From a virus: a stretch of DNA of 43,204 bases. Both the position numbers and the translations under genes were made by a program. The notes beneath the pieces are model-generated. The model was not told the origin of the DNA. It did no database searches and saw nothing but the letters and a program-made list of their open reading frames with translations. The stretch lies in the UHGV virus genome UHGV-0865506; one strand, given 5' to 3'. This document shows, one piece after another, positions 910 through 32,597 of the stretch (its first letter is position 1; every line of letters begins with the position of its first letter).

Positions 910-944
910 AACCCTCACTCCTCTGTCTCGTTCCAATAAGTGAA

Positions 945-972
945 TAGTATCCTATTATGTTGGGGTGCGCAA
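945..972 (-). promoter_or_regulatory. sigma70-like promoter, TTGCGC-N17-TACTAT, member of the TACTATTCA family
   Basis: Reverse complement reads TTGCGCACCCCAACATAATAGGATACTATTCA; near-identical motif at 23504, 32569 and 42842. Confidence 0.45.
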
Positions 973-1136
973 GAGAATAGTTACGTTGCCGTTGTGATTC
1001 TTTCGTTTCTTAAAAGAGTACGCAACGCAGTGGGTGGGCGTTAGCCCACCCCAGCGGAGTGAAGTACTCTCTACCTTGCTCACGGCAACTATAGAAACTT
1101 TTAATTATCAGTGACTTGGATATTTAGGCGGGATTA

Positions 1137-1290
1137 ACAATAGACTTTGACCCTTCCGAAAGCGTCAGCGGAACTACACTCAAGTGCCTAATGGCACGCG
1201 TTGCGTTCCCTGCCGCTCCGCGGTCGCTTGCGATATCTCACAAGCTCAGTGAAGCTTAGCATATTTTTAAGTAAAAGTCAATACTAGTAG
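1137..1290. repeat. conserved intergenic element, copy 1 (structured leader with embedded minus-strand promoter)
   Basis: About 150 bp, roughly 80% identical to 32359..32512, with compensatory changes in a hairpin (GTGCC-TAAT-GGCAC here, GGAC-TTAC-GTCC in copy 2). Confidence 0.6.
1253..1281 (-). promoter_or_regulatory. sigma70-like promoter TTGACT-N17-TAAGCT inside repeat copy 1
   Basis: Minus-strand hexamers with 17-nt spacer, conserved in both repeat copies. Confidence 0.4.
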
Positions 1291-1328
1291 CATCTTTTGC
1301 ATCTTAGTAACTTTGTGTGGTGTTTTGG

Positions 1329-4364: not shown

Positions 4365-4390
4365 AAAGAAAGGGGCGTTAAGCCCCTTCA
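4362..4390. terminator. rho-independent terminator, mainly minus-strand (bidirectional position)
   Basis: Hairpin AGGGGC-loop-GCCCCT with A-tract on the plus strand (T-tract on minus) just after the stop of the HTH gene 4378..4593. Confidence 0.55.
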
Positions 4391-4593
4391 CCGAACGCCA
4401 GCCACTTAGCATCTACTTGCAGCACTTCCGCCAGTTTAAACAGCGTTGCCGGGCGGACGTCCTGAGTTACCCCGAGCGCAAGCTGGTTAATCGCGCCCTG
4501 GGAAACCCCGGCCAGGACAGCCAGACGACGCTGGGAGATGCCGAGTTCTTTGCGGCGTTGTTCTACACGGATACCTAGTTCTGATGGTTGCAT
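4378..4593 (-). CDS. XRE-family (Cro/CI-type) helix-turn-helix transcriptional regulator
   Basis: ELGISQRRLAVLAGVSQGAINQLALG is a canonical HTH_XRE motif; divergent from the rightward promoter at 4658. Confidence 0.75.
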   Translation of the reverse strand: MQPSELGIRVEQRRKELGISQRRLAVLAGVSQGAINQLALGVTQDVRPATLFKLAEVLQVDAKWLAFGEGA

Positions 4594-4624
4594 GTCAGTT
4601 ACTCCTTAGTCAGTTGATACGTGA

Positions 4625-4653
4625 ATAGTACCATATTAATTATTTTAGAAAAG
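4625..4653 (-). promoter_or_regulatory. candidate promoter for the XRE regulator gene (TACTATTCA family, extended -10 TGGTACTAT, weak -35)
   Basis: Reverse complement contains TGGTACTATTCAC immediately upstream of the gene. Confidence 0.35.
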
Positions 4654-4657
4654 CCCA

Positions 4658-4687
4658 TTGACAACATGAATAGTTCGCTATTATAGT
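4658..4687 (+). promoter_or_regulatory. sigma70 promoter TTGACA-N18-TATAGT
   Basis: Consensus -35 and near-consensus -10; back-to-back with the regulator promoter. Confidence 0.55.
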
Positions 4688-4718
4688 TAACCAATACCAA
4701 ACGAGAGGAGAGAAACAA

Positions 4719-5481: not shown

Positions 5482-5718
5482 ATGATTATTAAAGATATTA
5501 ACAACGATGAAGCCAGAGTTAGCCTTGAGGTTCGCAACACGATACAGGGAAAGCAGAAAAGAGTAACCCTAGATTTCGACCCTGCGGATGAGATGAACGG
5601 GCTTTCGTTCATGGAATATACTCCTGATATGGCGAGAGAACTTGCTAAAGCGCTTATTTCCGCAGCGGATGAGGCGGAGGCTATGCTGGACGAACTTGAC
5701 TTTGATAGTTTTGAATGA
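5482..5718 (+). CDS. hypothetical acidic protein
   Basis: Track ORF; preceded by the repeated initiation region TGAGGGTCGGAATTATG. Confidence 0.5.
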   Translation: MIIKDINNDEARVSLEVRNTIQGKQKRVTLDFDPADEMNGLSFMEYTPDMARELAKALISAADEAEAMLDELDFDSFE

Positions 5719-5729
5719 GGGTCGGAAAT

Positions 5730-6002
5730 ATGATTTATCAACTATACCGCGCCATCGACAGGCGGGATAACACCGAGGCGATATGGCTGTTGCGTGCGCC
5801 GTCCGGTGCACACCAGATGGAAGAGATGGCGTACTTAGGCAAAGTACCGCGGCCTAAAGATATAGGCCGTCACGTGTCGCAGATTAAGCGCACGACTTTC
5901 GCCAAACCTGACTTTTATGTCTTCGAGTCGATGTATGGATGGGCTATGCACCGCCAGCACCAGACACAACATTTAATTGACCAGTGGGAGAACAGGGTAT
6001 GA
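5730..6002 (+). CDS. hypothetical protein
   Basis: Track ORF 5715..6002 with start moved to the internal Met that follows the repeated TGAGGGTCGGAAATATG initiation region. Confidence 0.5.
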   Translation: MIYQLYRAIDRRDNTEAIWLLRAPSGAHQMEEMAYLGKVPRPKDIGRHVSQIKRTTFAKPDFYVFESMYGWAMHRQHQTQHLIDQWENRV

Positions 6003-7264
6003 TTTTAAAGGAACGCGGCGGCAATAACGACGTACACGCTTTACTGTCGCCGTCAGGCGCTAAGAAGTGGCTAAGTTGCGCCGCATCGCTGGCTTGTGAA
6101 AAAGATATTCCTAACACGTCGGGTAAATCCGCCGTTACGGGGACAGCGTGTCACACAATAGCTGAGGTACATCTAAACCAGTACATCAAAGGCACTGCGC
6201 TGCCGTTAGAGCGTGAAGTCGGTGCGTACGTGCTGGATGAGGGTAAAGGACAGATTAAGGCACTAATCAGTCCGATGAAAGGTGCGGTACTGATTACGGC
6301 TGACATGATTGAGCAGGTGCGCAAGTATACCGACTACTGTAAACCGATTATCGATGTAGCGACTTACGCCAAGCTGGAAATGCGTGTCAATCTTACTGAG
6401 GTATTGCATCCGGGATACATCCATAGCCCCGGTGGGAGGCAAGAAGAAATTCAAACCTTCGGAACCGCTGACCTTGTTGCCGTGCAGGAACTGGCCAACA
6501 CTGATGAGCACATGTTAATTATCGGCGACCTGAAAACCGGACGGCATCGTGTCGAAGCGAAAGAAAACAAGCAGCTTATGCTTTACGCTCTCGGTGTTTA
6601 TCGCCGACTCAAGAGACGTTATAACATAACAACCGTTCGTCTGGTCATCTTCCAGCCGTACGCGGGCGGTGCGTCGGAGTGGGACATCTCGGTTGAAGGT
6701 CTGGAACTGTTCGCTAAGTTCGCCCAGAAGCGCGCACTGTTAGCGCTTGATGCGTATTTCCGCGGTAAGAAGAACCTGAAAGCGTCGGACTTCAAGCCGT
6801 CGGTAGATGGTTGTCAGTGGTGTCGGTTCTCAGAACAGTGCGCAGCGCGTACAAAAACCGTTAACGCGGTACTGGCGGAAGAACTGGAGGACGACTTTGC
6901 TCTTGAAATGACACCTGAGCAACTCGTAGCTGAGTATGAGAAGTTGCCGTTGTTGCGCCAGCACATCGACAAGGTTGAGAAAGCTATGGCTGCCGCGCTG
7001 CATTCGGGTAAGAAAGTTCCGGGGTACAAGCTGGTTGAAGGTCGCCCGGGTAATCGTGCATGGAAAGACACTGATGCGGTATTCGAGAAGTACGGTACTA
7101 TGCTGCAAAAGGTAGTGCTCATGACGCCAACCGAAGCTGTTAAAGTTGTGCCGGAAGAAGAACTGAAAGACTTCATTACTCGTAAGCCAGGAGCGCCGTG
7201 CGTCACAACGGCAGATGACAAACGGCCTGAGTGGAATCAGGTAACAGAGGAGGATTTGGAATGA
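5999..7264 (+). CDS. PD-(D/E)XK nuclease, Cas4/RecB-like (DUF2800-type)
   Basis: N-terminal LSPSGAKKWLSC, central IIGDLKTG and C-terminal cysteine cluster CQWCRFSEQC are typical of Cas4-like nucleases; ATGA coupling to the upstream gene. Confidence 0.7.
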   Translation: MILKERGGNNDVHALLSPSGAKKWLSCAASLACEKDIPNTSGKSAVTGTACHTIAEVHLNQYIKGTALPLEREVGAYVLDEGKGQIKALISPMKGAVLITADMIEQVRKYTDYCKPIIDVATYAKLEMRVNLTEVLHPGYIHSPGGRQEEIQTFGTADLVAVQELANTDEHMLIIGDLKTGRHRVEAKENKQLMLYALGVYRRLKRRYNITTVRLVIFQPYAGGASEWDISVEGLELFAKFAQKRALLALDAYFRGKKNLKASDFKPSVDGCQWCRFSEQCAARTKTVNAVLAEELEDDFALEMTPEQLVAEYEKLPLLRQHIDKVEKAMAAALHSGKKVPGYKLVEGRPGNRAWKDTDAVFEKYGTMLQKVVLMTPTEAVKVVPEEELKDFITRKPGAPCVTTADDKRPEWNQVTEEDLE

Positions 7265-7761
7265 GTTTAGTTCGGGAGCGTTTCATTTATGAAAACGGGA
7301 AACTAATCTATCGCCACAATACAAAAAGAATGTTAGCTGGTCAGGAGGCAGGAAGCCTCCACCATTCAGGGTATGTGCAGATCTACATTAATCGTAAGTC
7401 CTACCAAAGAAGCCGTTTAATATGGGAGTACCACAACGGCCCTATACCTGAAGGGTTTGAGGTGGACCATATAAATGCGATAAGAAATGATGACAGGATA
7501 GAGAATCTCCAGTTAATCGCTCATAGCGATAATGTGGCTAAAGGCGGCATTCAAACCGGAAGAAGTCATAACAAAAGCGGGTACACTGGCGTGTTTTGGC
7601 GCAAAAGCCATGGTAAATGGCAGGCTGGAATTACCGTAAACGGGCAATATCGTTACCTTGGACTATTCGAAACTCCTGAACAGGCTAACGTGGCGAGAAA
7701 GAATTTTGAAAGTAATTTGCTAAAAGAAGTTGACTACCGAATAGCGAACTATTATAGTTAA
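7261..7761 (+). CDS. HNH homing endonuclease with AP2 DNA-binding domain
   Basis: HNH motifs (YHNGPIPEGFEVDHINAIRNDDRIENLQLIAHSDN) followed by an AP2-like segment (GVFWRKSHGKWQAGITVNGQYRYLGLFETPEQA). Confidence 0.8.
   Translation: MSLVRERFIYENGKLIYRHNTKRMLAGQEAGSLHHSGYVQIYINRKSYQRSRLIWEYHNGPIPEGFEVDHINAIRNDDRIENLQLIAHSDNVAKGGIQTGRSHNKSGYTGVFWRKSHGKWQAGITVNGQYRYLGLFETPEQANVARKNFESNLLKEVDYRIANYYS
7730..7758 (+). promoter_or_regulatory. sigma70 promoter TTGACT-N17-TATAGT embedded in the 3' end of the HNH gene
   Basis: Near-consensus hexamers; part of a 32-bp repeat shared with 11631..11660. Confidence 0.5.
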
Positions 7762-7821
7762 ATCACTGGCCGGGCAGTTCCCGGAGTAAACTTAAAATCT
7801 AAACTTAATGAGGGCTGAACT

Positions 7822-8448: not shown

Positions 8449-8468
8449 TATCTGAACCAATTTAACTA

Positions 8469-8491
8469 AGGCCCTTCATTGGGCCTTTTTA
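8469..8491 (+). terminator. rho-independent terminator
   Basis: Hairpin AGGCCC-TTCATT-GGGCCT followed by TTTTT. Confidence 0.6.
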
Positions 8492-11389: not shown

Positions 11390-11663
11390 GGGGCGCATCC
11401 AGAAATACGCAAAAGAGCGATTCGAGGCTATCGGCGGCCTCGTACGCAAATTGTCGTACGAAAATAGAGCGGGCGCTCCTGACCTGCTGGTAATTCTCCC
11501 CGGCGGCATCATCTGGTTCGTCGAGGTTAAGAAAGACGAAAACACGAAGCCAGACCCACACCAGCTACGAGAGCACGAGCGGATGCGTAAACGTGGAGCA
11601 AATGTTTTTGTCGTTGGTTCGTTTAAACAGGTTGACGACCTAATAGCGAACTATTATAGTTAG
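11376..11663 (+). CDS. VRR-NUC domain nuclease
   Basis: GAPDLLV...WFVEVKKD matches the PD-(D/E)XK core of VRR-NUC proteins; position after DNA polymerase is typical. Confidence 0.7.
   Translation: MSTPEGRIQKYAKERFEAIGGLVRKLSYENRAGAPDLLVILPGGIIWFVEVKKDENTKPDPHQLREHERMRKRGANVFVVGSFKQVDDLIANYYS
11632..11660 (+). promoter_or_regulatory. sigma70 promoter TTGACG-N17-TATAGT embedded in the 3' end of the VRR-NUC gene
   Basis: Part of the 32-bp repeat shared with 7730..7758. Confidence 0.5.
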
Positions 11664-11693
11664 CCATACACCAACAATATAAGGAATTGAGAA

Positions 11694-23503: not shown

Positions 23504-23532
23504 TTGCACACCCCAATATAATAGGGTACTAT
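23504..23532 (+). promoter_or_regulatory. sigma70-like promoter TTGCAC-N17-TACTAT (TACTATTCA family) driving the rightward cassette
   Basis: TTGCACACCCCAATATAATAGGGTACTATTCA; near-identical to 32569..32600. Confidence 0.5.
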
Positions 23533-23562
23533 TCACTTACACCAACAATGAAGGGGTTTAAA

Positions 23563-23754
23563 ATGTCAAGTTTACCAGTTTCCTTAATTCTGTTTGCACT
23601 TCTCGCTTATTTCGCGCCTTTCCTGGTTGCGTATTTCCGCAACCATAAAGCGAAGTTGGCAATATTTATGGCTAACCTGTTTCTTGGTTGGGTTCTGCTG
23701 CCGTGGGTATTTATTTTAATCTGGGCGTGCAACTCGAATGTTAACGAGAAGTGA
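23563..23754 (+). CDS. small membrane protein
   Basis: Two predicted transmembrane helices; start at the internal Met with AAGGGG Shine-Dalgarno. Confidence 0.5.
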   Translation: MSSLPVSLILFALLAYFAPFLVAYFRNHKAKLAIFMANLFLGWVLLPWVFILIWACNSNVNEK

Positions 23755-23792
23755 GCTAGTATAGGACAAATCCTAAACACGAGGAAGTAAGC

Positions 23793-24932
23793 ATGGCCCA
23801 GAAGAAAATAACCGACGAACAGTTACAGGAAGAATTGAACGCCGGGATGAAGAATGTAGACATCGCCCGTAAATACGGCATCTCAGACCGCGTAATTCGT
23901 ATCCGTAAAGCGAAGCTGGCAAAGAAAGGCGTAGGTCACGGGCGTGATGTTAGTCACCTTGTACCGGACGGCTACAAGATTAAAGGGACGTCGTCCCTGG
24001 TGGACGAGTTTGGCAACACTAAGTTGCAATGGGTTAAGACCGACACCGATGCCGAACGTCAGGTCGAGTTGATGAAAGCCGTGATTGAAGGTATGAAGTC
24101 AGAGATTACACCGGTTGCGCCTGTTAAACCTGTTCGCGCCAAACGTGACGATAAACTGCTCAATCTCTACACTGTATCTGATTTCCATCTCGGTATGCTT
24201 GCATGGGCTGACGAGAGCGGCGATGACTGGGATATGAAGATTGCAGAAGACCTGTTCTCCCGCTGGTTCGATGCCGCGTTTCAGAAAGCACCGGATGCGG
24301 GGACTGGGGTTATTAACCTGCTGGGCGACTTCGCGCACTTCGATAGTCTTGATGCCGTTACCCCTGAGTCGCGTCATGTGTTAGACGCCGATACTCGCTA
24401 TCAGAAACTAGTTCGCTACATGATTCGTATGGTGCGTCGTGTTGTCGATATGGCGCTTGTTAAACATCACACAGTCAAACTTTTAATAGTTCAAGGTAAC
24501 CACGACCCTGTAGGCTCTGTATGGCTCGCCGAAATGTTCTGTACATTGTACGACAACGAACCTCGCGTATTTGTGGACACCTCCCCAGACGTATACAAGA
24601 TGGTCCAGCACGGGAAAACTACGCTATTCATGCATCATGGACACCGTGCGAGATTCGACGCCATAGAGTCAGTAATGATTTCTAAATTCCGTAAGGCTTT
24701 TGGAGAAAGCACATACAGCTACGCTCATGTAGGGCATCTACATCATCAGAAATTAGTAGAAAGCCGCAATATGGTAGTCGAACAACACCGAACCCTGGCT
24801 GCGAAAGATGCTTACGCATCGCGAGGGGGCTGGATGTCCGGTCGTAGTGCTAACGTGATAACTTATAGTGCCGAATATGGGGAGGTGGCACGTTTAACAA
24901 TATCACCAGAAATGATAGGGGGTATAAATTGA
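23793..24932 (+). CDS. calcineurin-like metallophosphoesterase with N-terminal helix-turn-helix-like region
   Basis: Motifs DFHLG, GDFAHFD, GNHD, HHGH and GHLHH match the metallophosphoesterase signature; N-terminus resembles an HTH. Confidence 0.65.
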   Translation: MAQKKITDEQLQEELNAGMKNVDIARKYGISDRVIRIRKAKLAKKGVGHGRDVSHLVPDGYKIKGTSSLVDEFGNTKLQWVKTDTDAERQVELMKAVIEGMKSEITPVAPVKPVRAKRDDKLLNLYTVSDFHLGMLAWADESGDDWDMKIAEDLFSRWFDAAFQKAPDAGTGVINLLGDFAHFDSLDAVTPESRHVLDADTRYQKLVRYMIRMVRRVVDMALVKHHTVKLLIVQGNHDPVGSVWLAEMFCTLYDNEPRVFVDTSPDVYKMVQHGKTTLFMHHGHRARFDAIESVMISKFRKAFGESTYSYAHVGHLHHQKLVESRNMVVEQHRTLAAKDAYASRGGWMSGRSANVITYSAEYGEVARLTISPEMIGGIN

Positions 24933-25402
24933 CATGGAATGATGTTTACGAATACGAAAACGGGAATCTTTACGCTAAGGACAGCGTAAACCCTAAGTAC
25001 CCGAAAGGACGTAAAGTAGGGTATGTGGACCAACGAGGGTATGTAAGAACTAAACTAGGGTCAAAAATGACATTCGCCCACAGAATTATATGGGAAATGT
25101 TTAACGGAGCTATACCAGAAGGCAAGGAGATTGACCATATAAACGGTGTGAAAAGCGATAACCGTATAGAGAATCTTCGACTGTGTGACCGGCGCATAAA
25201 CTGCAAAAATGCAGCAAAGCGCAGGGATAACTCGTCTGGCGTTACCGGGGTTAGTAAAACATATAACGGTAAGTGGGTAGTTCAAATTCAATATAACGGA
25301 AATAGAATAGCCAAGCGTTTCGACAACAAAGAAGACGCCGTAAGATATGCCGAAGGTTTTTACAAAGAAAAGAAAGACTTTACTGAGAGGCACGGAAAAT
25401 GA
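24929..25402 (+). CDS. HNH homing endonuclease with AP2-like domain (third copy)
   Basis: HNH motifs (EIDHINGVKSDNRIENLR) plus AP2-like GVSKTYNGKWVVQIQYNGNRIAKRF. Confidence 0.8.
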   Translation: MTWNDVYEYENGNLYAKDSVNPKYPKGRKVGYVDQRGYVRTKLGSKMTFAHRIIWEMFNGAIPEGKEIDHINGVKSDNRIENLRLCDRRINCKNAAKRRDNSSGVTGVSKTYNGKWVVQIQYNGNRIAKRFDNKEDAVRYAEGFYKEKKDFTERHGK

Positions 25403-25629
25403 CTTCAAAATACAACCGCACAATGACAAACACCCACGGCAGCACCATGACAGTAGACGTCTATGATGTGCTACGCGCCTTCGATATCCGTGACCCGGCG
25501 CTACAGCATGCGTTAAAGAAACTGCTGTGTATGGGTCTGCGCGGTCACAAAGACACCGGAACCGACTTAGCAGAAGCAATTGAAAGTCTGGAGAAGTTAC
25601 GGGAGTACAGGAGTAATATTGATGAGTGA
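25399..25629 (+). CDS. hypothetical protein
   Basis: Track ORF with ATGA overlap. Confidence 0.45.
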   Translation: MTSKYNRTMTNTHGSTMTVDVYDVLRAFDIRDPALQHALKKLLCMGLRGHKDTGTDLAEAIESLEKLREYRSNIDE

Positions 25630-25798: not shown

Positions 25799-25802
25799 GA
25801 AA

Positions 25803-25830
25803 AAGGCCCCTTTCGGGGCCTTAGTTTTAT
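25803..25830. terminator. bidirectional rho-independent terminator
   Basis: Hairpin AGGCCCC-TTTC-GGGGCCT with T-rich flanks on both strands; separates the rightward cassette from the tail tube gene. Confidence 0.6.
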
Positions 25831-27002
25831 ACGTAACTAATACGTTGAATTACGATAGACGACTGATACTGGTTGCCTGTGGACTGTCCTTCTATGCTTT
25901 GGGTAATTGATTCCGGGCCAGATATTTCTGGTGTGACCGCCGTAAGCTCTGCGCGTTTTAAACTGAAAGACATAGCCCCGTTTACCCCCGCCAGAATAGA
26001 GTTAATCTCTACCTGCTGCTCGTTGATAAACTTCTGAATCATCGCCATGTCGTACAGCTTACCAGAGATGGAGAAGGTGTTAGCTGCGCGACCACGTTCC
26101 ACGAACGCGACGCTACTGTTGCCGAGTTCGAACTGCGCGGAAGCACCGTTGTCGTTGGTGATGGTCAGAGTATCGCAACGCAACGGCGTAGAACCGTCGA
26201 ACACAGACACATCTACAGAAGAGAACGGCTCGTCAGTGAATGTGACCTGGGAGAAGTCGGAACCTGCTGGCGCCGCGGTAAGAATCTCCTGACTCAGACC
26301 GATGAATGGGAAGCTGCCGGTTACCATCGCATTTACGGCTTGCTCGATAGTAAAACCGGAGATTTCCACACCTTTGGTCAACATGTACGCGTCCGGGTTC
26401 CCGCACTGTCCTTTGAACCACGTCAGGATGGAGAATGTCTTACACGCGTTACCGGTTTCCAGCTTGTCACCCGTTTTACCGTCGGTCTCGATAGGGCCTT
26501 CGGCGGTCAGGGTGTGTTGGATACCCGCACCCGTAACAACCGTAGCAGTTACCGCGGTAACGATAAACGGCTTGGCGTTGTCTCCGGTTAAGCCGTCGAA
26601 GTACAGAAGGTCGCCGACTTCAACGCCATCGGTAATGAAGCTACCGGCGGCGCGGGTGAAGGTTTTCGCTACCGGGTCTACCGTAATACCTACCGCAGTT
26701 AAGGTTACGCCATCCTGCCACGTAGACGTCATCGCGCCTGCGAGGAAATCATCCTGGCTACGTGAGCTAAGTTCGATTGCGTACTCACCACTAACCTGCT
26801 TGTTACCGGTGCGGATGGATGTGGTTTCACGGCTGCCGTCCAGTTCGTTGGAGGTCAGCGCGTCGCGGGTTACCGCAGGAACGCCGCCGGTGTTTCGCAA
26901 CGGCGACCAGACCGGGTTACTTGGTGTTACGCCCGGGGTCACTTCCGCCACATAGAATTGCGCGGTATTCGCGCCCTTAAAAGGAGTTGTAGCCATATTC
27001 AC
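25827..27002 (-). CDS. major tail (tube) protein
   Basis: 391 aa, in the major tail position of the lambda/HK97 gene order; Thr/Gly/Ser-rich. Confidence 0.6.
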   Translation of the reverse strand: MNMATTPFKGANTAQFYVAEVTPGVTPSNPVWSPLRNTGGVPAVTRDALTSNELDGSRETTSIRTGNKQVSGEYAIELSSRSQDDFLAGAMTSTWQDGVTLTAVGITVDPVAKTFTRAAGSFITDGVEVGDLLYFDGLTGDNAKPFIVTAVTATVVTGAGIQHTLTAEGPIETDGKTGDKLETGNACKTFSILTWFKGQCGNPDAYMLTKGVEISGFTIEQAVNAMVTGSFPFIGLSQEILTAAPAGSDFSQVTFTDEPFSSVDVSVFDGSTPLRCDTLTITNDNGASAQFELGNSSVAFVERGRAANTFSISGKLYDMAMIQKFINEQQVEINSILAGVNGAMSFSLKRAELTAVTPEISGPESITQSIEGQSTGNQYQSSIVIQRISYV

Positions 27003-27415
27003 AGCCTCTTGGTGAATGCGATAAAGTTAATTGACAATGGCCGTTTGGCCCATCCGTTTTCTACAATCAGCGGCCCCAGGCTAACCGATTGAACCTCGGC
27101 GCAGATGTCGTTACGTGAAAATGACTTACCTGCTTTAAACGCCGTGTTAAGTAAGTCTGCCATTTTATTGATTGGCGCGCTACCTTTCACCGATGCGTAG
27201 TTAATGTCAACCTGATAAATACCAGAGCGTTGTTCCGTGAAGAACAAATCCGCCTGCTCGGTGTCCGCAAGTAACATGTAACTTGCCAGATACGGTGTGT
27301 CGGTTGACGTCGGTGTGTCGATGTTTTCAAGCGCAACCTTGATGCCGTTGGTTGTTCCGAAGGCTACCAGCGGCACATCGAACGCTTTTGTTAAGTCCTC
27401 GAAATAGCCCATCAA
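26999..27415 (-). CDS. tail terminator / tail completion protein
   Basis: Positional call. Confidence 0.45.
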   Translation of the reverse strand: MMGYFEDLTKAFDVPLVAFGTTNGIKVALENIDTPTSTDTPYLASYMLLADTEQADLFFTEQRSGIYQVDINYASVKGSAPINKMADLLNTAFKAGKSFSRNDICAEVQSVSLGPLIVENGWAKRPLSINFIAFTKRL

Positions 27416-27810
27416 TCTGCCCTCGCCGCAGCTTCGTTGAGTAGACGTTGGAATCTGGCGACAGTCACACGGACCATGCCTTGAGGTGCTTGCTGTGAGT
27501 ACCCATATTCTAACCTTTCCGCATATGGCAAATTATTTGTAAAACAGAAATTTTCCCACTCAGGAGATGACATAACGTAACTTGTCATCCGACCTATGGC
27601 TCTGCTCCCGGAAGGGTCGTTGGCTATTAAAACACCCGTTGCTGGCGTGTTATTACTGACCTGCCAATTCATCCGGAATCTACCCGTGTCAACGGGACTT
27701 GCCATTATAATCTGAGAATATAATTTAATCGTGACCTGGCGAACCACCAGTTCAGGGTTCTTTTTGGCCTTCTTTATAAAATTCTGAATAGACTGTTCAA
27801 ATGGTGTCAT
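27412..27810 (-). CDS. HK97 gp10-like head-tail joining protein
   Basis: VDTGRFRMNW resembles the conserved gp10-family motif. Confidence 0.55.
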   Translation of the reverse strand: MTPFEQSIQNFIKKAKKNPELVVRQVTIKLYSQIIMASPVDTGRFRMNWQVSNNTPATGVLIANDPSGSRAIGRMTSYVMSSPEWENFCFTNNLPYAERLEYGYSQQAPQGMVRVTVARFQRLLNEAAARAD

Positions 27811-28166
27811 TTTCTTACCTGAATAAAGTAGGCTACGACATCATCATTAACCATCTTCTTCTCAATAGCTTCGATAGACCATTGCTCGCCGCCGAATTGT
27901 ACCTTGTCTTCCATCTTCGGTACGACGCGGTAATCGGCTTTAACAATCATGTCACCGGCCTGAATCGTCGTACCGTTTACCAGTCCCGCGTTTACCGGAA
28001 CCGGAACGGCCTTCAACGGCAGCACTTCATCCGCAGACCAGACGTACTCACCGAGAACTTCATCCCATACTTTCGAACCAGCGCGAACAAGAGATACCGT
28101 GCTGCCGAATTTGGTTAGCAGGCGTGTGCCAACGCCTTGCATACGTTTACTGAAAGCGGTGCTCAT
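27807..28166 (-). CDS. head closure / head-tail adaptor protein
   Basis: Positional call. Confidence 0.45.
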   Translation of the reverse strand: MSTAFSKRMQGVGTRLLTKFGSTVSLVRAGSKVWDEVLGEYVWSADEVLPLKAVPVPVNAGLVNGTTIQAGDMIVKADYRVVPKMEDKVQFGGEQWSIEAIEKKMVNDDVVAYFIQVRK

Positions 28167-28786
28167 CAGGCGGCCTCCAGTCTAGAGATAACCAGTAGCG
28201 CGGACGGTGCAGTGCCCCATGCGGTTACGGTAGCCGCTTGCGGGTATACGCCACCGTAGTTGCTTCCGGAGCTATCTCGCATAATCTGAACGGCAAACGT
28301 CTGGCCTGCTGTCGGGTTAATAACGACGCGGGATTCAATCGGAATCGTTACGTCGGCGCTGACCAGTTTAGTAGCTGCGGGGGAGCCGTACTGAGCGCCG
28401 TTAAGGAGAATGCGTGATAAAAGGATTGATGTACCACTCGCCCCCGTACGCCCGGCCTGTAACTTGATGCGAACGGCGTAGTTACCCGCGGTGTTAAACG
28501 TAACCAGCCCAGCGGCATTAATCATTACCGGGTCAGATGCGCTTCCCTGAGCGGAGCCGAAAGTTAACTGCAACGCTGTGTCCACTGCGGATGGCACTTG
28601 TGCTACGGTCGACGCTGCGCGGAGAACTTCAACCTCTTTAACGCCAGGAGTGGCGTAAATAGGTGAGTCAGCCATCTGCGTCATTACCTCGCGTAGTTTC
28701 GCGGGGGTAATAAGTCCGGTGGTGTTATCGGGGAGGTTCGCGCCGATAAGGGTAAACATCTCTGTTTTTGTCTTCGCCATTTTCAA
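28166..28786 (-). CDS. hypothetical virion structural protein
   Basis: Track ORF within the neck gene block. Confidence 0.45.
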   Translation of the reverse strand: MKMAKTKTEMFTLIGANLPDNTTGLITPAKLREVMTQMADSPIYATPGVKEVEVLRAASTVAQVPSAVDTALQLTFGSAQGSASDPVMINAAGLVTFNTAGNYAVRIKLQAGRTGASGTSILLSRILLNGAQYGSPAATKLVSADVTIPIESRVVINPTAGQTFAVQIMRDSSGSNYGGVYPQAATVTAWGTAPSALLVISRLEAA

Positions 28787-29295
28787 CCCCGGTACACGTT
28801 AAACGAGAAGCCATTGTTAAGACCACCACACAATAACGGGCGTAGAGCGTCGTCAGCAGCGGTAATCGCGGTTGTAGTGCCACTGTTGCCGTTGTTGAAG
28901 TAGGTCACTGTTACTGCACCTTCTACGCGCTCGGTCTGCACGGAACGCCCATCAGAGTTAGCCCGCACTTCTGTACCCGCACCATATGTAGCAGAGGCGA
29001 TTACCTGCGCAAGAATAACCTGTTTTGGGATGGCATTGTTCGCTACAGGGAACCCGTTTAGCGTAACACCAGTGCGAGGATACGCCAGAGACTGTTCAGC
29101 GGATACACGACGACCGCACATCTGCGGTTCTGCAAGCCCGATATACGTAGCGCCGTTGCGCAGGGCCACCTCTGCGGCGGTATCGTCTTCCGGCAGTTCA
29201 AGGCCATAATTAGCCGCTAACGCGCGGGCGTCAGCCAGACTAACGTAACTGTCGGCATTCGGGACGATTGCCCCAGTTTCCACGATTAGCGGCAT
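28783..29295 (-). CDS. head-tail connector protein (gp6-like)
   Basis: Position after the capsid block; GAGGAA Shine-Dalgarno. Confidence 0.5.
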   Translation of the reverse strand: MPLIVETGAIVPNADSYVSLADARALAANYGLELPEDDTAAEVALRNGATYIGLAEPQMCGRRVSAEQSLAYPRTGVTLNGFPVANNAIPKQVILAQVIASATYGAGTEVRANSDGRSVQTERVEGAVTVTYFNNGNSGTTTAITAADDALRPLLCGGLNNGFSFNVYRG

Positions 29296-29298
29296 AAA

Positions 29299-29478
29299 TT
29301 ATTCCTCTGACTTACGGCGACGACGCTTAGTACCACCGCCGTTGTTGTGCGCTTCTTCGTTGTCCGGTTGAGTCGCAACCAGTTCATCCGCTTCTACCAC
29401 ACCGCGAACAGGCATCACCTGACCGTCAACAATATCGACGTGGGTGTACTTTTCGCGGATTACATAATTATCTGCCAT
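29299..29478 (-). CDS. small basic-tailed protein (about 59 aa), candidate
   Basis: Hand-derived ORF MADNYVIREKYTHVDIVDGQ...KRRRRKSEE between the Ig-like and connector genes. Confidence 0.3.
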   Translation of the reverse strand: MADNYVIREKYTHVDIVDGQVMPVRGVVEADELVATQPDNEEAHNNGGGTKRRRRKSEE

Positions 29479-29514
29479 GACCTTTCCTTATTACGGCCCC
29501 GAAGGGCCGTTGTA

Positions 29515-29856
29515 TTAAGACACAGTTGCTACAGTGCTGCTGGAGATAATATTACCATACACATCGTGAACAACCACTTTATACGTGCCGGAGTCGGCGG
29601 TAGTGGTCGACGCTTTAGCATAGGAAGCAGCGTTTGCCCCGGCGATGGCGTTGTTATTCTTGTACCACTGGTAGGAATACGGCTCCAGACCGCCGGTTAC
29701 GGTTACGGTCAGTGTCATGGTTTCACCCGCGGTTACTGTGGTAGTAGCCGCCAGCGCGGATGAGAAAGACGCAGGAGAAATAGTAGCCATGTCAATCTTA
29801 GCACCCGGGGTATCAGCGGAGACGCCGGTGATGCGTCGCTTCAATACGTCTGCCAT
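29515..29856 (-). CDS. Ig-like domain protein, probable head decoration protein
   Basis: Thr-rich beta-strand pattern with YSYQWYKNNNAI, an Ig-like (Big_2-type) signature; immediately downstream of the capsid gene. Confidence 0.55.
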   Translation of the reverse strand: MADVLKRRITGVSADTPGAKIDMATISPASFSSALAATTTVTAGETMTLTVTVTGGLEPYSYQWYKNNNAIAGANAASYAKASTTTADSGTYKVVVHDVYGNIISSSTVATVS

Positions 29857-29871
29857 TTAGGAATCCTCTTA

Positions 29872-29899
29872 GTAAATGAAAAGAGGGACCGAAGTCCCT
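29872..29899 (-). terminator. rho-independent terminator after the major capsid gene
   Basis: Hairpin AGGGAC-CGAA-GTCCCT followed on the minus strand by TTTTCATTT. Confidence 0.5.
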
Positions 29900-29917
29900 C
29901 TCGATTATAGCTTAACC

Positions 29918-30967
29918 TTAAGCCCCTACACCAGTTACCAGGAAGGCAATCGGTACATGCTTACGGTCAACCACACGGTTCCAGTTGGAGGCGTTCGCCA
30001 GGTCCTGCCAGGAAGCAGAGCGTGCTACGGTCTCGGTGCCATTGCCGGTGATTACTGCGCTGGTGAAGCTGTAACCAAACGGATGCAGCAACCAGGTCTT
30101 GCGAGTCCACAAAGTTTCAACGCCACCACCGTTGCCGCGAGACGCTTCGCGCTCGTATTCCAGCGGGTTGGACGGAGAACCTTCGCCGTAACCGATAGCG
30201 CCGTTACCGAAGATGATGGAAATGAACTTACGGCTCGGGCCAGTACCGACTACGGTCATGCTGTCGTCAACAATCACGCGGTAGCCCTGGTAGGTGGCGA
30301 ACAAGGTGTCGTTGTCAGCGTCTTTGATGAAGTCGATAAGCTGCTGTTTACGCGCCTGTGCATAAACGAAGCTGTGCATCGCGATAGCGCCGAGCACTTC
30401 GCCACCATTACCCATCAGTGCGTCGCCCATAGTCTGGGTAGCGTCGATGAATGCTCCAGCGTCGAAGCCAAGAGTAGCGGACACGTCAATTACCATGTCG
30501 TTCTGCTCGTGGTATGCGTCGGTAGCGGCTACGTTGTCATTGTACAGGCCGAGCGCGGTAGCAATCAGACGGCGTTGTGCCTGGCGCTGCCAGAAGTTAT
30601 CCAGACGGGACGCTACTGATTGCAGCGGGTTCTGGCTGGTCAGTTCAACAGTCAGGTCAGCCTGACCGAATCCTTCGTTCAGATACGCTACGCGCGCCAT
30701 CATCTCACTGGTCTGCACGTTACGTGGGGTTGCGATGTCCTGGTATACGTCGTTCGAGTAGTTTGGCTCGATAGAGGTATCAATCGCTTTCCAGAAAGGA
30801 ATGTTAGCGATGTTGGACGGGCCGCGGGCAATCTCGGCAGCGTACGGAGTCGGGGTCAGAATGCCGGACTGGAAGAACGCGGTTTTTTCTACCGGGTCCT
30901 CGGTCATGTAAGACGCCAGGACCGGGATGTTGCCAGTTACGATATCGCCGATAGTGGTAATTGCCAT
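29918..30967 (-). CDS. major capsid protein (HK97 fold)
   Basis: 349 aa, follows the scaffold gene and precedes a terminator. Confidence 0.8.
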   Translation of the reverse strand: MAITTIGDIVTGNIPVLASYMTEDPVEKTAFFQSGILTPTPYAAEIARGPSNIANIPFWKAIDTSIEPNYSNDVYQDIATPRNVQTSEMMARVAYLNEGFGQADLTVELTSQNPLQSVASRLDNFWQRQAQRRLIATALGLYNDNVAATDAYHEQNDMVIDVSATLGFDAGAFIDATQTMGDALMGNGGEVLGAIAMHSFVYAQARKQQLIDFIKDADNDTLFATYQGYRVIVDDSMTVVGTGPSRKFISIIFGNGAIGYGEGSPSNPLEYEREASRGNGGGVETLWTRKTWLLHPFGYSFTSAVITGNGTETVARSASWQDLANASNWNRVVDRKHVPIAFLVTGVGA

Positions 30968-30969
30968 TA

Positions 30970-31671
30970 TTATTTCCTCAGGGCTTTAAGTTGCCGTTCA
31001 AATTCGGCAGGGTTCGATTTATGCAGGGCTAAACGCTCTGCTTCACTCATGTCTTTAAACGCTGGTGCGGCCCCGCCGCCTTTGCTACCGGAAGCCCCGC
31101 CGCCGGAAGCTGCATTTGCTTTAATCAAATGCGAAAACGCTTTGTGTTCGCGCAGGTATTTGCGGAACTGTTCCGTGTCAGTCGTGATTACGTTGCCATC
31201 TGCGCCAACAAACTTAGTAACCACGTCATCGCCTTCGAACTCAGTCTTAACGAACGGTGCAAGAATGTCCACTGCTTCCGGGGTGATAAAGTCACCTGCG
31301 AAAGAACCTAACACCGCTTTACGTTCGCTGCCGAGGATGCGCTCTGCCATTCTGGAGATACGACCATCTTTCTCAGCTAACACCGGGTCATACTGGCTAC
31401 GAATCGTCTTTTCGAACTCGTCCATCTTACCAGCAGCTTTTAATGCCTCCTGGTGCGCGCGCTGCCGTTCTTCTTCGGCCTCTTTTGCTTTACGGGCGGC
31501 TTCTTTTTTCTCCGCCAGCAATGCTTCCTGATTGGCCTTAAGCCCGGCAACTTCTTTCTCAATCAGCGCCTGAACTTCTTCAGCGGTGAACATTTTTGGC
31601 GCGCCACCGCCGCCAGCTTTATCTTCTGCCCCAGCTTCTTCCTGGAACGGGTAACGTAAAAAACGATTCAT
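30970..31671 (-). CDS. scaffolding protein
   Basis: Ala/Glu/Lys-rich coiled-coil protein immediately upstream of the capsid gene; start at internal ATG because the track start is TTG. Confidence 0.6.
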   Translation of the reverse strand: MNRFLRYPFQEEAGAEDKAGGGGAPKMFTAEEVQALIEKEVAGLKANQEALLAEKKEAARKAKEAEEERQRAHQEALKAAGKMDEFEKTIRSQYDPVLAEKDGRISRMAERILGSERKAVLGSFAGDFITPEAVDILAPFVKTEFEGDDVVTKFVGADGNVITTDTEQFRKYLREHKAFSHLIKANAASGGGASGSKGGGAAPAFKDMSEAERLALHKSNPAEFERQLKALRK

Positions 31672-31753
31672 AGTCAGTATGTCCCCTGGACGTTGGAACC
31701 CGGCCCCCCCGGATTTACATGTCAAGAATAAATTATTCCAACATGCAAGGCAA

Positions 31754-32017
31754 CTATTCCAGAATATTCCTCACGTAATCCTGCAGCATGAACACTTTCA
31801 GTCTTAGTTGCCGTATGCATTCAGCGTTCTGAACGTCGATAGCTAAATCCTCGTCCGAGTCGCTACTTGGCAGCGCCAGTTTGCACGGCGGCTGCATCAT
31901 CGTCGTATCCGGGGATGGAATTGGCGTTGGTGACAGCGCGGGACTTGAGCAGGACGCGAGCATCGTCGAAAGTGCACACGCTGCGGCCAGGCGTTTTAAT
32001 GTACTTAACGACTTCAC
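31754..32017 (-). CDS. o-spanin (Rz1-like outer-membrane lipoprotein), overlapped arrangement
   Basis: Signal peptide with lipobox (MLASC) followed by a Pro-rich segment; reading frame begins inside the i-spanin gene and extends beyond it. Confidence 0.55.
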   Translation of the reverse strand: MKSLSTLKRLAAACALSTMLASCSSPALSPTPIPSPDTTMMQPPCKLALPSSDSDEDLAIDVQNAECIRQLRLKVFMLQDYVRNILE

Positions 32018-32249
32018 GGGTAATCACCTCCGATTTCGTCTTGCCTTCGTTGTCAGCGGCTGCGGCCTTCGATTCGTCCTGCTGCTGCCGTTGTGTTTTC
32101 TTCGCTAACTCAGCCTGTGCTTTCTGCTGTTGCTGCGAAACGAGATTAGCGCGGCCTTCGCCCCAGCCGCTGCGATACTGGTAGATGCCGTGTGCGTAGG
32201 CCAGGATGATGAAACATGCTCCCGCTACGACAGTTGCTTTAAGATTCAT
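31863..32249 (-). CDS. i-spanin (Rz-like)
   Basis: N-terminal transmembrane helix followed by Gln/Ala/Lys-rich coiled coil; AAGGAGAAAC Shine-Dalgarno. Confidence 0.6.
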   Translation of the reverse strand: MNLKATVVAGACFIILAYAHGIYQYRSGWGEGRANLVSQQQQKAQAELAKKTQRQQQDESKAAAADNEGKTKSEVITREVVKYIKTPGRSVCTFDDARVLLKSRAVTNANSIPGYDDDAAAVQTGAAK

Positions 32250-32358
32250 GTTTCTCCTTTCTCGATAAGTAAAGCCCCGCCTTAAAGCGGGGCGCTAGTC
32301 CTTATCATTTAAACATAGAAACGGCGTAATCTCCGTAAACCAGTTACTTTTTACACAA

Positions 32359-32512
32359 GCAATAGACTATGGCCCTTCCGAACGCGTCAGCGTAACTACA
32401 CTCAGGACTTACGTCCCGCTCCGTTACCTGCCCGCGCCGCGGTCGCTTGTTCATACTTCACAAGCTCAGGTGGAGCTTAGCACATTTTTAGTGAAAAGTC
32501 AACTATTCGAAT
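32359..32512. repeat. conserved intergenic element, copy 2
   Basis: Homologous to 1137..1290; lies in the 5' leader region of the spanin/late operon. Confidence 0.6.
32474..32502 (-). promoter_or_regulatory. sigma70-like promoter TTGACT-N17-TAAGCT inside repeat copy 2
   Basis: Same hexamers and spacing as in copy 1. Confidence 0.4.
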
Positions 32513-32568
32513 AGTTTATTCCAACATTTACAATTAGGTGGAATAACAGGAATACGTAAACAAATAGT

Positions 32569-32597
32569 TTGCACACACCAATATAATAGGGTACTAT
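32569..32597 (+). promoter_or_regulatory. sigma70-like promoter TTGCAC-N17-TACTAT (TACTATTCA family)
   Basis: TTGCACACACCAATATAATAGGGTACTATTCA, about 28 nt upstream of the 32625 gene. Confidence 0.5.

What the first reader, a model, noticed from the sequence alone, without database searches (positions are those of the whole stretch)
1137..1290. Two copies of a conserved ~150-bp promoter-plus-structured-leader element with compensatory base changes
1137..1290 and 32359..32512 align over about 150 bp. The hairpin GTGCC-TAAT-GGCAC (1184..1197) is replaced in copy 2 by GGAC-TTAC-GTCC (32405..32416): the sequence changes but pairing is kept, which is the signature of selection on structure. Both copies carry the same minus-strand TTGACT-N17-TAAGCT promoter and sit at the head of leftward operons. 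Two copies of a short structured RNA just downstream of promoters is the architecture of cis-acting antitermination RNAs such as the put elements of phage HK022; a small RNA or a regulator-binding platform are alternatives. I do not recognise this element as a described family.
Basis: partly seen in the sequence, partly recalled or inferred. Interest (0 to 1): 0.75.

Follow-up and report, generated by a model that had tools for sequence, protein, structure and literature searches.

The report
Conserved structured leader RNA of phage late operons
Two copies of a roughly 110-base folded RNA leader, each made from its own promoter at the head of a long phage gene block, belong to an undescribed RNA family found in about 450 related phage genomes; it most likely helps RNA polymerase read through stop signals, but this is untested.

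Summary
Window 1138-1290 and 32360-32512 are two copies of one module on the minus strand. Each has a sigma-70 promoter (TTGACT, 17 bases containing TGn, TAAGCT) followed at about +2 by a 108-110 nt structured RNA.

The RNA has a short hairpin P1, a long bulged hairpin P2 and a conserved single-stranded tail (GGAAGGGYC...CUAUUG). Seven sequence classes from relatives fold the same way. In the CM alignment 97.8% of cells are paired and 10 of 28 pairs change on both sides, which 0 of 500 shuffles reach.

The window is a Kagunavirus (Guernseyvirinae). Copy 2 sits upstream of the spanin-scaffold-capsid operon in all 181 K-type records and is the most conserved 150-nt bin locally. A diverged type with the same architecture (SETP3 type) occupies that site in 269 Salmonella phage records. 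Copy 1 occurs in only about 50 records.

There is no Rfam match, no similarity to HK022 put, no recognised antiterminator protein among the 20 small proteins scanned, and no description in the papers searched.

Both copies are followed by terminator-like hairpins, and the capsid operon has no other promoter-like site. My best reading is therefore a cis-acting, put-like antitermination or anti-pausing leader (about 0.35). A processing or stability element, a protein-binding leader and a stand-alone small RNA remain open.

The parts
1253..1281 (-). Copy 1 promoter. -35 TTGACT at 1281->1276; 17-nt spacer ending in TGc; -10 TAAGCT at 1258->1253. Inferred start near A1246/G1247.
   Evidence: Read directly from the sequence. 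The hexamers and TG are invariant across copy-1 and copy-2 homologues. The start site is inferred from spacing and is not mapped.
1138..1247 (-). Copy 1 leader RNA (class A, 110 nt). P1 hairpin 1245->1226; junction GA; long bulged hairpin P2 about 1223->1156, with apical hairpin GUGCC-AUUA-GGCAC at 1197->1184; tail AAGGGUC..GUCUAUUG at 1155->1138.
   Evidence: CM hits of 106.8 bits and 89.1 bits. MFE folds. Pair counts.
1010..1071 (-). Terminator-like composite hairpin after copy 1 (stem 1071->1014), followed by UUUU (1013->1010).
   Evidence: Folds (-36 kcal/mol for the region). The same hairpin is kept at 97.5% identity in phage BEU35, which has a different leader upstream. Termination itself is not shown.
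937..973 (-). Second promoter, TTGCAC-N17-TACTAT, between the copy-1 terminator and the first leftward ORF (936->727). It belongs to a repeated promoter family.
   Evidence: Repeat families I1, D7 and I12. The hexamers were read from the sequence. Function is inferred.
32474..32502 (-). Copy 2 promoter. -35 TTGACT at 32502->32497; 17-nt spacer ending in TGc; -10 TAAGCT at 32479->32474. Inferred start near 32467.
   Evidence: Sequence and alignment.
32360..32467 (-). Copy 2 leader RNA (class B, 108 nt). P1 32465->32445; P2 32442->32378 (CCG/CGG, GGCGCG/CGCGUU, CAG/CUG, GUAAC/GUUAC, internal loop GGAG/AGUGUA, apical CGGGAC-GUAA-GUCCUG); tail AAGGGCCAUAGUCUAUUG 32377->32360.
   Evidence: CM hits of 124 and 132.9 bits. 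Folds. This is the most conserved 150-nt bin in the region, 98-99% against four relatives.
32264..32293 (-). Terminator-like hairpin GCCCCGC-UUUAA-GGCGGGGC (32293->32274) with tail UUUACUUAUC. It ends 24 nt before the spanin start codon at 32249.
   Evidence: Terminator scan and fold. A GC-rich hairpin sits at the same position in the SETP3 and Cornellvirus types, but without a U-rich tail.
32517..32554 (-). Upstream repeats read on the minus strand: TATTCC (32554->32549), TATTCC (32545->32540) and GGAATA (32522->32517), ending 14 nt before the -35. Probably a binding site for a regulator of the capsid-operon promoter. Absent from copy 1.
   Evidence: Sequence. The same arrangement lies upstream of the SETP3-type and Cornellvirus-type promoters. 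Function is inferred.
25827..32249 (-). Operon headed by copy 2: spanin, scaffold, major capsid, head-tail and tail-tube genes. Internal minus-strand terminators lie at 29902->29881 (after the capsid gene) and 25822->25803.
   Evidence: ORFs. Annotation of relatives. Terminators, and no minus-strand promoter-like site between 32250 and 27810.

Best explanation
**What it is.** The element is a promoter-plus-leader module. Host sigma-70 RNA polymerase starts at an extended -10 promoter. From about +2 it transcribes a 108-110 nt RNA. The RNA folds into a short 5' hairpin (P1), a long bulged hairpin of about 23 bp (P2) with a conserved asymmetric internal loop, and a conserved unpaired tail (GGAAGGGYC...CUAUUG).

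**Proposed mechanism.** The nascent RNA acts in cis on the polymerase that made it, in the manner of HK022 put RNA. The polymerase then becomes resistant to pausing and termination.
- It would read through the hairpin and U-tract that follows each copy.
- It would also read through the strong terminators inside the capsid/tail operon.
- Transcripts from other promoters would stop at those sites.

**What is shown.** The promoter motifs, the RNA fold and its covariation, the fixed position at the head of the capsid operon in about 450 genomes, and the downstream terminator-like hairpins.

**What is inferred.** The transcription start site, termination at the hairpins, any contact with RNA polymerase, and read-through.
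For: 1. The RNA structure is real and strand-specific. 97.8% of cells pair and 10 of 28 pairs change on both sides, reached by 0 of 500 shuffles. Two invariant G-U pairs would be C-A mismatches on the other strand.
2. Seven K-type classes fold alike independently. RNAalifold on the diverged SETP3 type recovers the same P1, CCG/CGG, GGUGCG/CGCAUU and apical-hairpin plan from different sequences.
3. The shared block between the two copies runs exactly from the -35 to CUAUUG, and the sequences upstream and downstream differ. The unit is therefore promoter plus leader.
4. The RNA starts at the transcript's 5' end and has two stem-loops 1-2 nt apart. putL likewise starts at its transcript's 5' end and has two stems (PMC9378689).
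5. Terminator-like hairpins follow both copies. The copy-2 hairpin ends 24 nt before the spanin ATG. No promoter-like site was found on that strand down to the capsid gene. A bidirectional terminator (32914-32933) closes off the upstream side. Capsid expression must therefore pass this hairpin.
6. Strong internal terminators follow the capsid and tail-tube genes. Depositors annotated terminators at the equivalent sites in phage Shashou.
7. At locus 1 the terminator and the early promoter are retained at 97.5% identity even where a different structured leader replaces the element. Leaders look like exchangeable modules placed ahead of a fixed terminator.
8. No Q- or N-type antiterminator was found among 20 small proteins. 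No distant gene co-varies with leader type in 9 K-type versus 3 S-type genomes. Both results fit, weakly, a factor-independent RNA.
9. The copy-2 core is more conserved (98-99%) than the neighbouring capsid gene (81-95%).
Against: - There are no functional data of any kind.
- There is no sequence similarity to put and no CM hit in HK022.
- The element is longer than put and has a different stem plan.
- In the SETP3 and Cornellvirus types the hairpin before the spanin gene lacks a U-rich tail. A leader-proximal terminator is therefore not universal.
- Several other promoters lie inside the copy-1 unit, for example TTGACT-N17-TATATT at 39642->39614 just after a strong terminator. Long-range read-through is not strictly required there.
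- Leaders fall into discrete, internally uniform types (K, S, C, Sh, X). That pattern is also what co-evolution with a type-specific partner would give.
- Promoter, RNA, terminator is also the layout of a small-RNA gene.
Confidence: 0.35

Rival explanations
1. The leader is a recognition platform for a protein, in the manner of nut/N or a leader-binding regulator. A phage-encoded or host protein would bind the conserved internal loop or tail. It would then either load onto RNA polymerase for antitermination or control the adjacent hairpin.
For: - Leaders come in discrete types that are 93-100% uniform within a type but strongly diverged between types. Specificity modules such as Q/qut behave this way.
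- The conserved unpaired motifs (GGAAGGGYC; internal loop GGAG/AGUGUA in K, UGAAG/AGCGUA in S) look like binding sites.
- Most small phage proteins have no known function.
Against: - No known antiterminator family was found among the 20 proteins scanned.
- In 9 K-type versus 3 S-type genomes, the only ORFs that track leader type lie next to the leader itself.
- The same X-type locus-1 leader occurs with both K-type and S-type locus-2 leaders.
Confidence: 0.17
2. The leader is an mRNA processing and stability element. The 5'-terminal hairpin P1 would protect the late mRNA from 5'-end-dependent decay. The roughly two-turn P2 duplex with its internal loop would be an RNase III-type processing site. 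The hairpin just upstream of the ribosome-binding site would become the protective 5' end of the mature capsid-operon mRNA.
For: - P1 begins at about +2 of the transcript.
- P2 has about 20-23 bp with an internal loop in both K and S types. From general knowledge, that is the size of T7 and lambda RNase III sites.
- A GC-rich hairpin with compensatory changes lies 20-25 nt before the spanin start in K, S and C types, whether or not it has a U-tract.
Against: - At locus 1 a terminator-like hairpin and a separate promoter lie between the leader and the genes. The leader would then not be part of their mRNA unless termination is overcome.
- RNase III sites do not need 98-99% primary-sequence conservation or a conserved single-stranded tail.
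Confidence: 0.2
3. Each copy is a stand-alone small RNA gene. Transcription from each promoter would stop at the first hairpin, giving RNAs of about 190 nt (copy 2) or about 235 nt (copy 1). These would act in trans on host or phage targets, or titrate a protein. They could be by-products of antitermination control, like lambda 6S RNA or StxS.
For: - The order promoter, structured RNA, hairpin plus U-tract holds at both loci.
- At locus 1 the downstream genes have their own promoter.
- There is precedent: short PR'-tR' transcripts of Stx phages act as regulatory RNAs (PMC7547250, listed).
Against: - At locus 2 the capsid operon has no other promoter-like site, so full termination would be lethal.
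- The S and C types lack a U-tract after the hairpin.
- No conserved seed complementary to an identified target was found. A target search was not attempted.
Confidence: 0.13
4. The element has no RNA function. The similarity would reflect a duplicated promoter region or a conserved recombination linker between genome modules.
For: - The element sits at module junctions, next to a variable gene slot.
- Classes move between the two loci.
Against: - Substitutions are concentrated in paired positions and are compensatory.
- Invariant G-U pairs give strand asymmetry.
- Conservation exceeds that of neighbouring essential genes.
Confidence: 0.03

Closest known systems
HK022 put RNAs (putL, putR): cis-acting, protein-independent antiterminator RNAs
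   Same: - Each is made just downstream of a sigma-70 promoter at the head of a long phage operon.
- The RNA begins at, or close to, the transcript's 5' end.
- It has two stem-loops with bulges separated by 1-2 nt.
- There can be two diverged copies per genome whose stems keep pairing through compensatory change.
- Terminators lie downstream.
   Different: - There is no detectable sequence or CM similarity.
- It is about 108 nt rather than about 70 nt.
- It has one short and one very long stem rather than two similar stems, plus a conserved 3' single-stranded tail.
- It occurs in virulent siphoviruses (Guernseyvirinae), not lambdoid temperate phages.
- It heads late capsid and lysis/packaging units rather than early operons.
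- Most relatives have one copy.
- Activity and dependence on the beta' zinc-binding domain are untested.
Lambda late module: PR' promoter, 6S RNA, tR' terminator, with Q/qut antitermination
   Same: A sigma-70-type promoter is followed by a roughly 190-235 nt untranslated RNA and a terminator-like hairpin, placed directly ahead of lysis and structural genes.
   Different: - No Q-like protein was found among the proteins scanned.
- What is conserved here is a folded RNA, not a DNA qut site with a -10-like pause element.
- NANNAT-type pause motifs are not conserved between the copies (my own reading of the sequences).
Lambda nut/N; Bacillus EAR RNA; conAn (pLS20) and Tn916 leader antitermination systems
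   Same: In these systems promoter-proximal RNA elements confer processive antitermination on long operons of mobile elements (PMC8191782 and PMC11658703, listed).
   Different: - nut is a small boxA/boxB site that needs N and Nus factors.
- conAn needs a protein partner.
- The leader region matches no Rfam family at E <= 10 apart from noise hits.
- No boxA-like sequence was seen.
RNase III processing hairpins and 5' stabiliser hairpins of T7 and lambda mRNAs
   Same: It has a long irregular duplex of about two helical turns with an internal loop in an untranslated leader, and a hairpin at the extreme 5' end.
   Different: Primary sequence and the single-stranded tail are far more conserved than such sites need. 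Cleavage is untested.

Membership tests
HK022-type put RNA | Sequence or profile similarity to putL/putR | tested here: not met
   Local alignment of putL and putR against K copy 1, K copy 2 and the S type falls within the shuffle range in 5 of 6 comparisons, with one marginal case (2/500). putL versus putR, and K versus S, both give 0/500. CM R1 and R2 give no hit in the HK022 genome. Rfam has no put model: the HK022 put region gives only noise.
HK022-type put RNA | About 70 nt, two stem-loops of similar size, made just downstream of an operon promoter | tested here: inconclusive
   There are two stem-loops 1-2 nt apart that start at about +2. However the element is 108-110 nt, with a 6-8 bp P1, a roughly 23 bp P2 and a conserved 3' tail.
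HK022-type put RNA | Terminator read-through in cis without phage proteins, blocked by RNA polymerase beta' zinc-binding-domain mutations | not testable with these tools
   This needs reporter assays, in vitro transcription and rpoC mutants (criteria from PMC9378689).
Any Rfam 15 family | Score at or above the family's gathering threshold | tested here: not met
   There are 0 matches in the whole window. At E <= 10 around each copy there are only sub-threshold noise hits: ctRNA_p42d, OrzO-P, wcaG and others.
Lambda-type Q/qut late antitermination | A Q-family protein encoded by the phage | tested here: not met
   PHROGs scans of 20 small or regulatory-region proteins found no antitermination family. 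They found only an Xis/MerR-like HTH (1387-1557) and a Cro/DicA-like HTH (4378-4593). The remaining proteome was not scanned.
Lambda-type Q/qut late antitermination | Promoter, then a short terminated transcript, directly upstream of late genes | tested here: met
   Copy 2 has a promoter at 32502->32474, a hairpin plus U-rich tail at 32293->32264 and the spanin ATG at 32249. These are sequence features only; termination is not shown.
Conserved structured RNA (generic criterion) | Compensatory substitutions that maintain helices across homologues | tested here: met
   Within the S type the apical GGGCGU/ACGCCC becomes GGGCGC/GCGCCC. The third pair of helix P2b is C-G, U-A or A-U.

The most novel reading that the evidence does not exclude
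Guernseyvirinae phages carry a previously unrecognised class of self-sufficient RNA-polymerase-modifying leader RNAs, unrelated in sequence to put. These leaders come in several interchangeable types (K, SETP3-type, and possibly the Cornellvirus, Shemara and locus-1 'X' types). They would make transcripts from a dedicated promoter terminator-resistant. On this reading, RNA-only processive antitermination is a general strategy of virulent phages that rely on host polymerase, not a curiosity of HK022-like temperate phages.
Probability: 0.25. Interest if true: 0.85.

Novelty: new variant of a known kind. Interest (0 to 1): 0.62.

Why it matters
- **An open question becomes testable.** How virulent siphoviruses without their own RNA polymerase or sigma factor express long late operons through internal terminators is largely unknown. 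Protein-independent antiterminator RNAs are known mainly from HK022 and a few relatives. An independent RNA family with this activity would give a second system for studying how nascent RNA reprograms polymerase.
- **Many natural variants exist.** The family is present in about 450 sequenced phages, many of them phage-therapy candidates against E. coli K1/UTI strains and Salmonella. Compensatory variants are ready for testing.
- **It would have practical use.** A compact part for terminator-proof expression would result.
- **It matters even if the mechanism differs.** The leader is the most conserved non-coding sequence next to the capsid operon. It is currently unannotated, or overlapped by spurious ORF calls such as Shashou gene 007.

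Tried and rejected
- **Rfam.** A whole-window search at gathering threshold and permissive searches around both copies found nothing. Rfam also gives nothing for the HK022 put region, so it cannot test put membership.
- **Direct comparison with put.** Local alignment with shuffles and CM searches of HK022 show no similarity.
- **tRNA/tmRNA.** None found.
- **Known antiterminator proteins.** PHROGs on 20 proteins found none. One call failed on a frame error.
- **A phage gene that co-varies with leader type.** In 9 K-type versus 3 S-type genomes only leader-adjacent ORFs track the type, which is linkage rather than a partner.
- **Occurrence outside Guernseyvirinae.** A bacterial genome scan with a K/S-shared pattern gave one hit, a phage contig binned in a MAG. 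The nearest capsid relative outside the subfamily, Pseudomonas phage Almagne, has no intergenic gap at that site.
- **Unifying the Cornellvirus and Shemara leaders with the K/S structure.**
  - They share the genomic position, an extended -10 promoter (Cornellvirus type), and short motifs (ACCGCG..CGGAAGGGYC; AUAGUCUAUU).
  - Their hairpin plan differs and the K-type CM does not score them.
  - Homology is left open.
- **A sigma-dependent pause motif (NANNAT), as in putL.** It is present in copy 2 (AAGUAU at +10 to +15) but not in copy 1 or the S type, so I rejected it as a shared feature.
- **A small ORF using GGAAGGG as a ribosome-binding site.** No conserved reading frame exists.
- **An antiterminator/terminator alternative pairing (classical attenuation).** I found no convincing complementarity.
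- **Literature.**
  - Six searches found no description of this element.
  - A Kagunavirus RNA-seq paper reports only gene-level timing.
  - A Kagunavirus genome paper only counts predicted promoters and terminators.

Full report
**What the window is.** BLAST places the window in Kagunavirus (Guernseyvirinae). It is 96-98% identical to phages phiEc4, AV104 and others. In the window's orientation the replication genes are on the plus strand. The structural, lysis, packaging and many small genes are on the minus strand.

**The observation.**
- The two stretches align from the -35 hexamer to ...CTATTG.
- All stated details are correct: hairpin GTGCC-TAAT-GGCAC at 1184-1197, GGAC-TTAC-GTCC at 32405-32416, and the minus-strand TTGACT-N17-TAAGCT.
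- Both promoters also have TGn just upstream of TAAGCT, an extended -10. This explains why a weak hexamer, missed by the generic scan, can still serve.
- The shared block starts exactly at the -35 and ends at CUAUUG. Sequences upstream and downstream of it are unrelated between the copies.

**The RNA and its structure.**
- Read on the minus strand, the transcript should start near 1246/1247 (copy 1) and 32467 (copy 2).
- From +3 it forms hairpin P1 (GCUUGU...ACAAGC), then GA.
- A long bulged hairpin P2 follows. It contains CCG/CGG; GGNGCG/CGCNUU; CAG/CUG; GNAAC/GUNNC; an internal loop GGAG/AGUGUA; and a variable apical hairpin.
- It ends in the tail AAGGGYC-AUAGUCUAUUG.

A pattern scan of viral contigs plus fetched genomes gave 66 instances in 33 distinct cores. 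These fall into about seven classes, A to G. Each class folds into the same plan on its own.

RNAalifold on a plain MAFFT alignment finds 21 pairs, 4 of them with compensatory changes. The third pair of P2b is C-G, U-A or A-U.

On a CM-fitted alignment of 32 distinct sequences:
- 97.8% of cells pair, against 90.2% in shuffles and 30-37% when partners are slid by 1-3 columns.
- 10 of 28 pairs change on both sides.
- All six apical pairs covary.
- 0 of 500 shuffles reach the observed values.

The alignment is fitted to the model, and the sequences are related, so these numbers are not probabilities. The independent folds and the MAFFT result agree with them. Two invariant G-U pairs would be C-A on the plus strand, so the minus-strand RNA is the selected molecule.

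**Distribution.**
- The copy-2 site lies upstream of the spanin-scaffold-major-capsid operon. It carries this 'K-type' leader in 181 phage records from E. coli, Salmonella, Raoultella and Shigella, at 95-99% identity.
- The 150-nt bin holding its core is the most conserved in a 6-kb comparison with four relatives: 98-99%, against 75-97% for the flanking genes and 81-95% for the capsid gene.
- Capsid-protein searches find about 460 Guernseyvirinae records, so many lack the K-type.
- Phage SETP3 and 268 other records, mostly Salmonella, carry a diverged 'S-type' at the same site. Its promoter is TAGACT-N17(TGt)-TACGCT.
- The S-type has P1 UACGCU-UUC-AGCGUA, then CCG, GGUGCG/CGCAUU, (U)CGCG/CGCG(A), apical GGGCGU-CACA-ACGCCC, and tail CGGAAGGGCC..CUAUAYUG.
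- RNAalifold on six S-type variants recovers this plan independently. Within-type changes are compensatory.
- K and S are significantly similar in sequence (0/500 shuffles), and the K-type CM scores SETP3 at 37 bits.
- Cornellvirus-like phages (FSL SP-031, GRNsp27, phiEap-2, Hafnia TS33) and Shemara/St162 have yet other structured leaders at this site. These share only short motifs (ACCGCG..CGGAAGGGYC; AUAGUCUAUU) and are not scored by the K model. I leave their homology open.

**Copy 1.**
- It lies between the divergent HTH/helicase-primase genes and the small-gene block.
- It occurs in only about 50 records (235 places in 181 records). It is more variable, 74-80% between classes.
- It is absent from four fully searched relatives.
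- In such phages the locus holds a different structured leader ('X-type') behind a TTGACA-N17-TAAGKT promoter.
- The following spacer, terminator-like hairpin and early promoter are the same as in the window: 97.5% identity in BEU35.
- Class E occurs at locus 1 in some contigs and at locus 2 in another, so the loci exchange sequence.

**Context that bears on function.**
- Copy 1 is followed by a large hairpin plus UUUU (1071->1010). Next comes a TTGCAC-N17-TACTAT promoter (973->937), one of four copies in the window, and then the ORFs.
- Copy 2 is followed by GCCCCGC-UUUAA-GGCGGGGC-UUUACUUAUC (32293->32264). This ends 24 nt before the spanin ATG.
- No promoter-like site was found on that strand between 32250 and 27810.
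- A bidirectional terminator (32914-32933) and an oppositely oriented gene lie upstream. The copy-2 promoter is therefore the only evident promoter for the scaffold and capsid genes, and its transcripts must pass the hairpin.
- Strong minus-strand terminators follow the capsid gene (29902->29881) and the tail-tube gene (25822->25803). Equivalent terminators are annotated in phage Shashou.
- Upstream of the copy-2 promoter, but not copy 1, lie TATTCC, TATTCC and GGAATA repeats. These are conserved ahead of the K, S and Cornellvirus-type promoters. This suggests promoter-level control by a DNA-binding protein.
- In the S and C types the hairpin before the spanin gene is kept, with a compensatory G-C to A-U change, but it has no U-tract. 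A leader-proximal intrinsic terminator is thus not universal.

**Mechanism.** I rank a cis-acting, put-like antitermination or anti-pausing RNA first, at about 0.35. The reasons are:
- The promoter and leader are inherited as one unit.
- The RNA starts at the 5' end and has two adjacent stem-loops.
- It is placed ahead of terminator-like hairpins and of operons with internal terminators.
- Different leaders are swapped in front of an unchanged terminator at locus 1.
- I found neither a known antiterminator protein nor a distant gene that tracks leader type.

The rivals are:
- a protein-recognition leader (0.17), favoured by the discrete types;
- a 5' stabiliser or RNase III-type processing element (0.20), favoured by the 5'-terminal hairpin, the two-turn P2 and the conserved hairpin before the ribosome-binding site;
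- a stand-alone small RNA ending at the first hairpin (0.13);
- no RNA function (0.03), contradicted by the covariation.

None can be excluded by sequence analysis alone.

**Comparison with known systems.**
- The closest working analogue is HK022 put (features from PMC9378689).
- Membership fails on the one testable defining feature. There is no sequence or profile similarity, and the size and stem plan differ.
- The layout promoter, short RNA, terminator, late genes resembles lambda PR'-6S-tR', but no Q-like protein was found.
- No Rfam family matches.
- Searches of open-access papers found no description of this element. A Kagunavirus RNA-seq paper gives only gene-level timing. A Kagunavirus genome paper only counts predicted promoters and terminators.

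**Verdict.**
- The element is a genuine, strongly conserved, undescribed structured leader RNA family of Guernseyvirinae.

Noticed in passing
window 937-973 (-), 4618-4638 (-), 23504-23539 (+), 32569-32604 (+): A repeated promoter-like family, TTGCAC-N17-TACTAT, with about 35 conserved bases. It heads the small-gene block, the Cro-like gene, the plus-strand accessory gene block 23548-25798 and the gene divergent from copy 2. It is probably the phage's early promoter class, and is also conserved in Salmonella relatives (L058 at about 36097).
   Followed up: partly
window 4669-4693, 7716-7764, 11618-11666 (+): Three copies of TTGAC(T/G)-N-AATAGCGAACTATTATAGTTA in the replication-gene block. This looks like a second promoter class (TTGACT-N17-TATAGT) with a small palindrome (AATAG..CTATT) in the spacer, possibly an operator.
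   Followed up: no
window 32517-32554: TATTCC, TATTCC and GGAATA repeats sit 14-50 nt upstream of the copy-2 -35. They are conserved upstream of the K-, SETP3- and Cornellvirus-type capsid-operon promoters but absent from copy 1. They probably bind an unidentified activator or repressor.
   Followed up: partly
window 1307-1316 and 1337-1346: A perfect 10-bp inverted repeat, GTAACTTTGT / ACAAAGTTAC, lies upstream of the copy-1 promoter, next to the divergent HTH gene (1387-1557). Related GTAACTT/AAGTTAC motifs occur just after the promoter of the X-type leader in L058. It may be an operator.
   Followed up: no
L059 34230-34460; L058 35720-35960; L082 about 36620-36900: Phages lacking copy 1 carry a different structured leader ('X-type') at that locus. 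It has TTGACA-N17-TAAGKT, a long hairpin that covaries between L058 and L059, and the motif CUCUAUUCUCAUCGGCAG. The same terminator and early promoter follow it as in the window.
   Followed up: partly
window 32345-32359 and 32459-32465 (-): In copy 2 the tail continues as UUGCUUGUGUAA, repeating the 5' strand of P1 (GCUUGUG). The MFE fold of the longer leader pairs this repeat with the 3' strand of P1 instead. The S-type tail likewise repeats GCUUUCAG from its own P1. This could be an alternative-pairing switch or the trace of a hairpin duplication. It is absent from copy 1.
   Followed up: no
window 8464-8490, 25801-25830, 32906-32935: Near-identical bidirectional terminators, AAGGCCCC-N4-GGGGCCTT, stand at the boundaries between oppositely transcribed blocks.
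   Followed up: no
window 39660-39700 (-) and 39614-39642 (-): A strong terminator, CCCGGC-N9-GCCGGG-UAUUUUUUU, follows the endolysin gene; the scan missed it because the loop exceeds 8 nt. A TTGACT-N17-TATATT promoter follows directly, so the lysis and packaging clusters may be separate units.
   Followed up: no
L004 37780-37830 and homologues (alignment A2, columns 221-250): Between the copy-1 element and its downstream hairpin, relatives carry a CTCA tetranucleotide repeat of variable length, about 3 units in UKE1, RP180 and Shashou and about 6 in Golestan.
   Followed up: no
window 7435-7508 and 25103-25176: Two HNH endonuclease paralogues share a 74-nt stretch at 73% identity. One lies in the replication block (7231-7761) and one in the plus-strand accessory gene block 23548-25798.
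   Followed up: no
L006 (Shashou) 5621-5731; L003 7716-7826: Deposited annotations place short 'hypothetical protein' ORFs directly over the copy-2 leader RNA. These calls are probably spurious.
   Followed up: no
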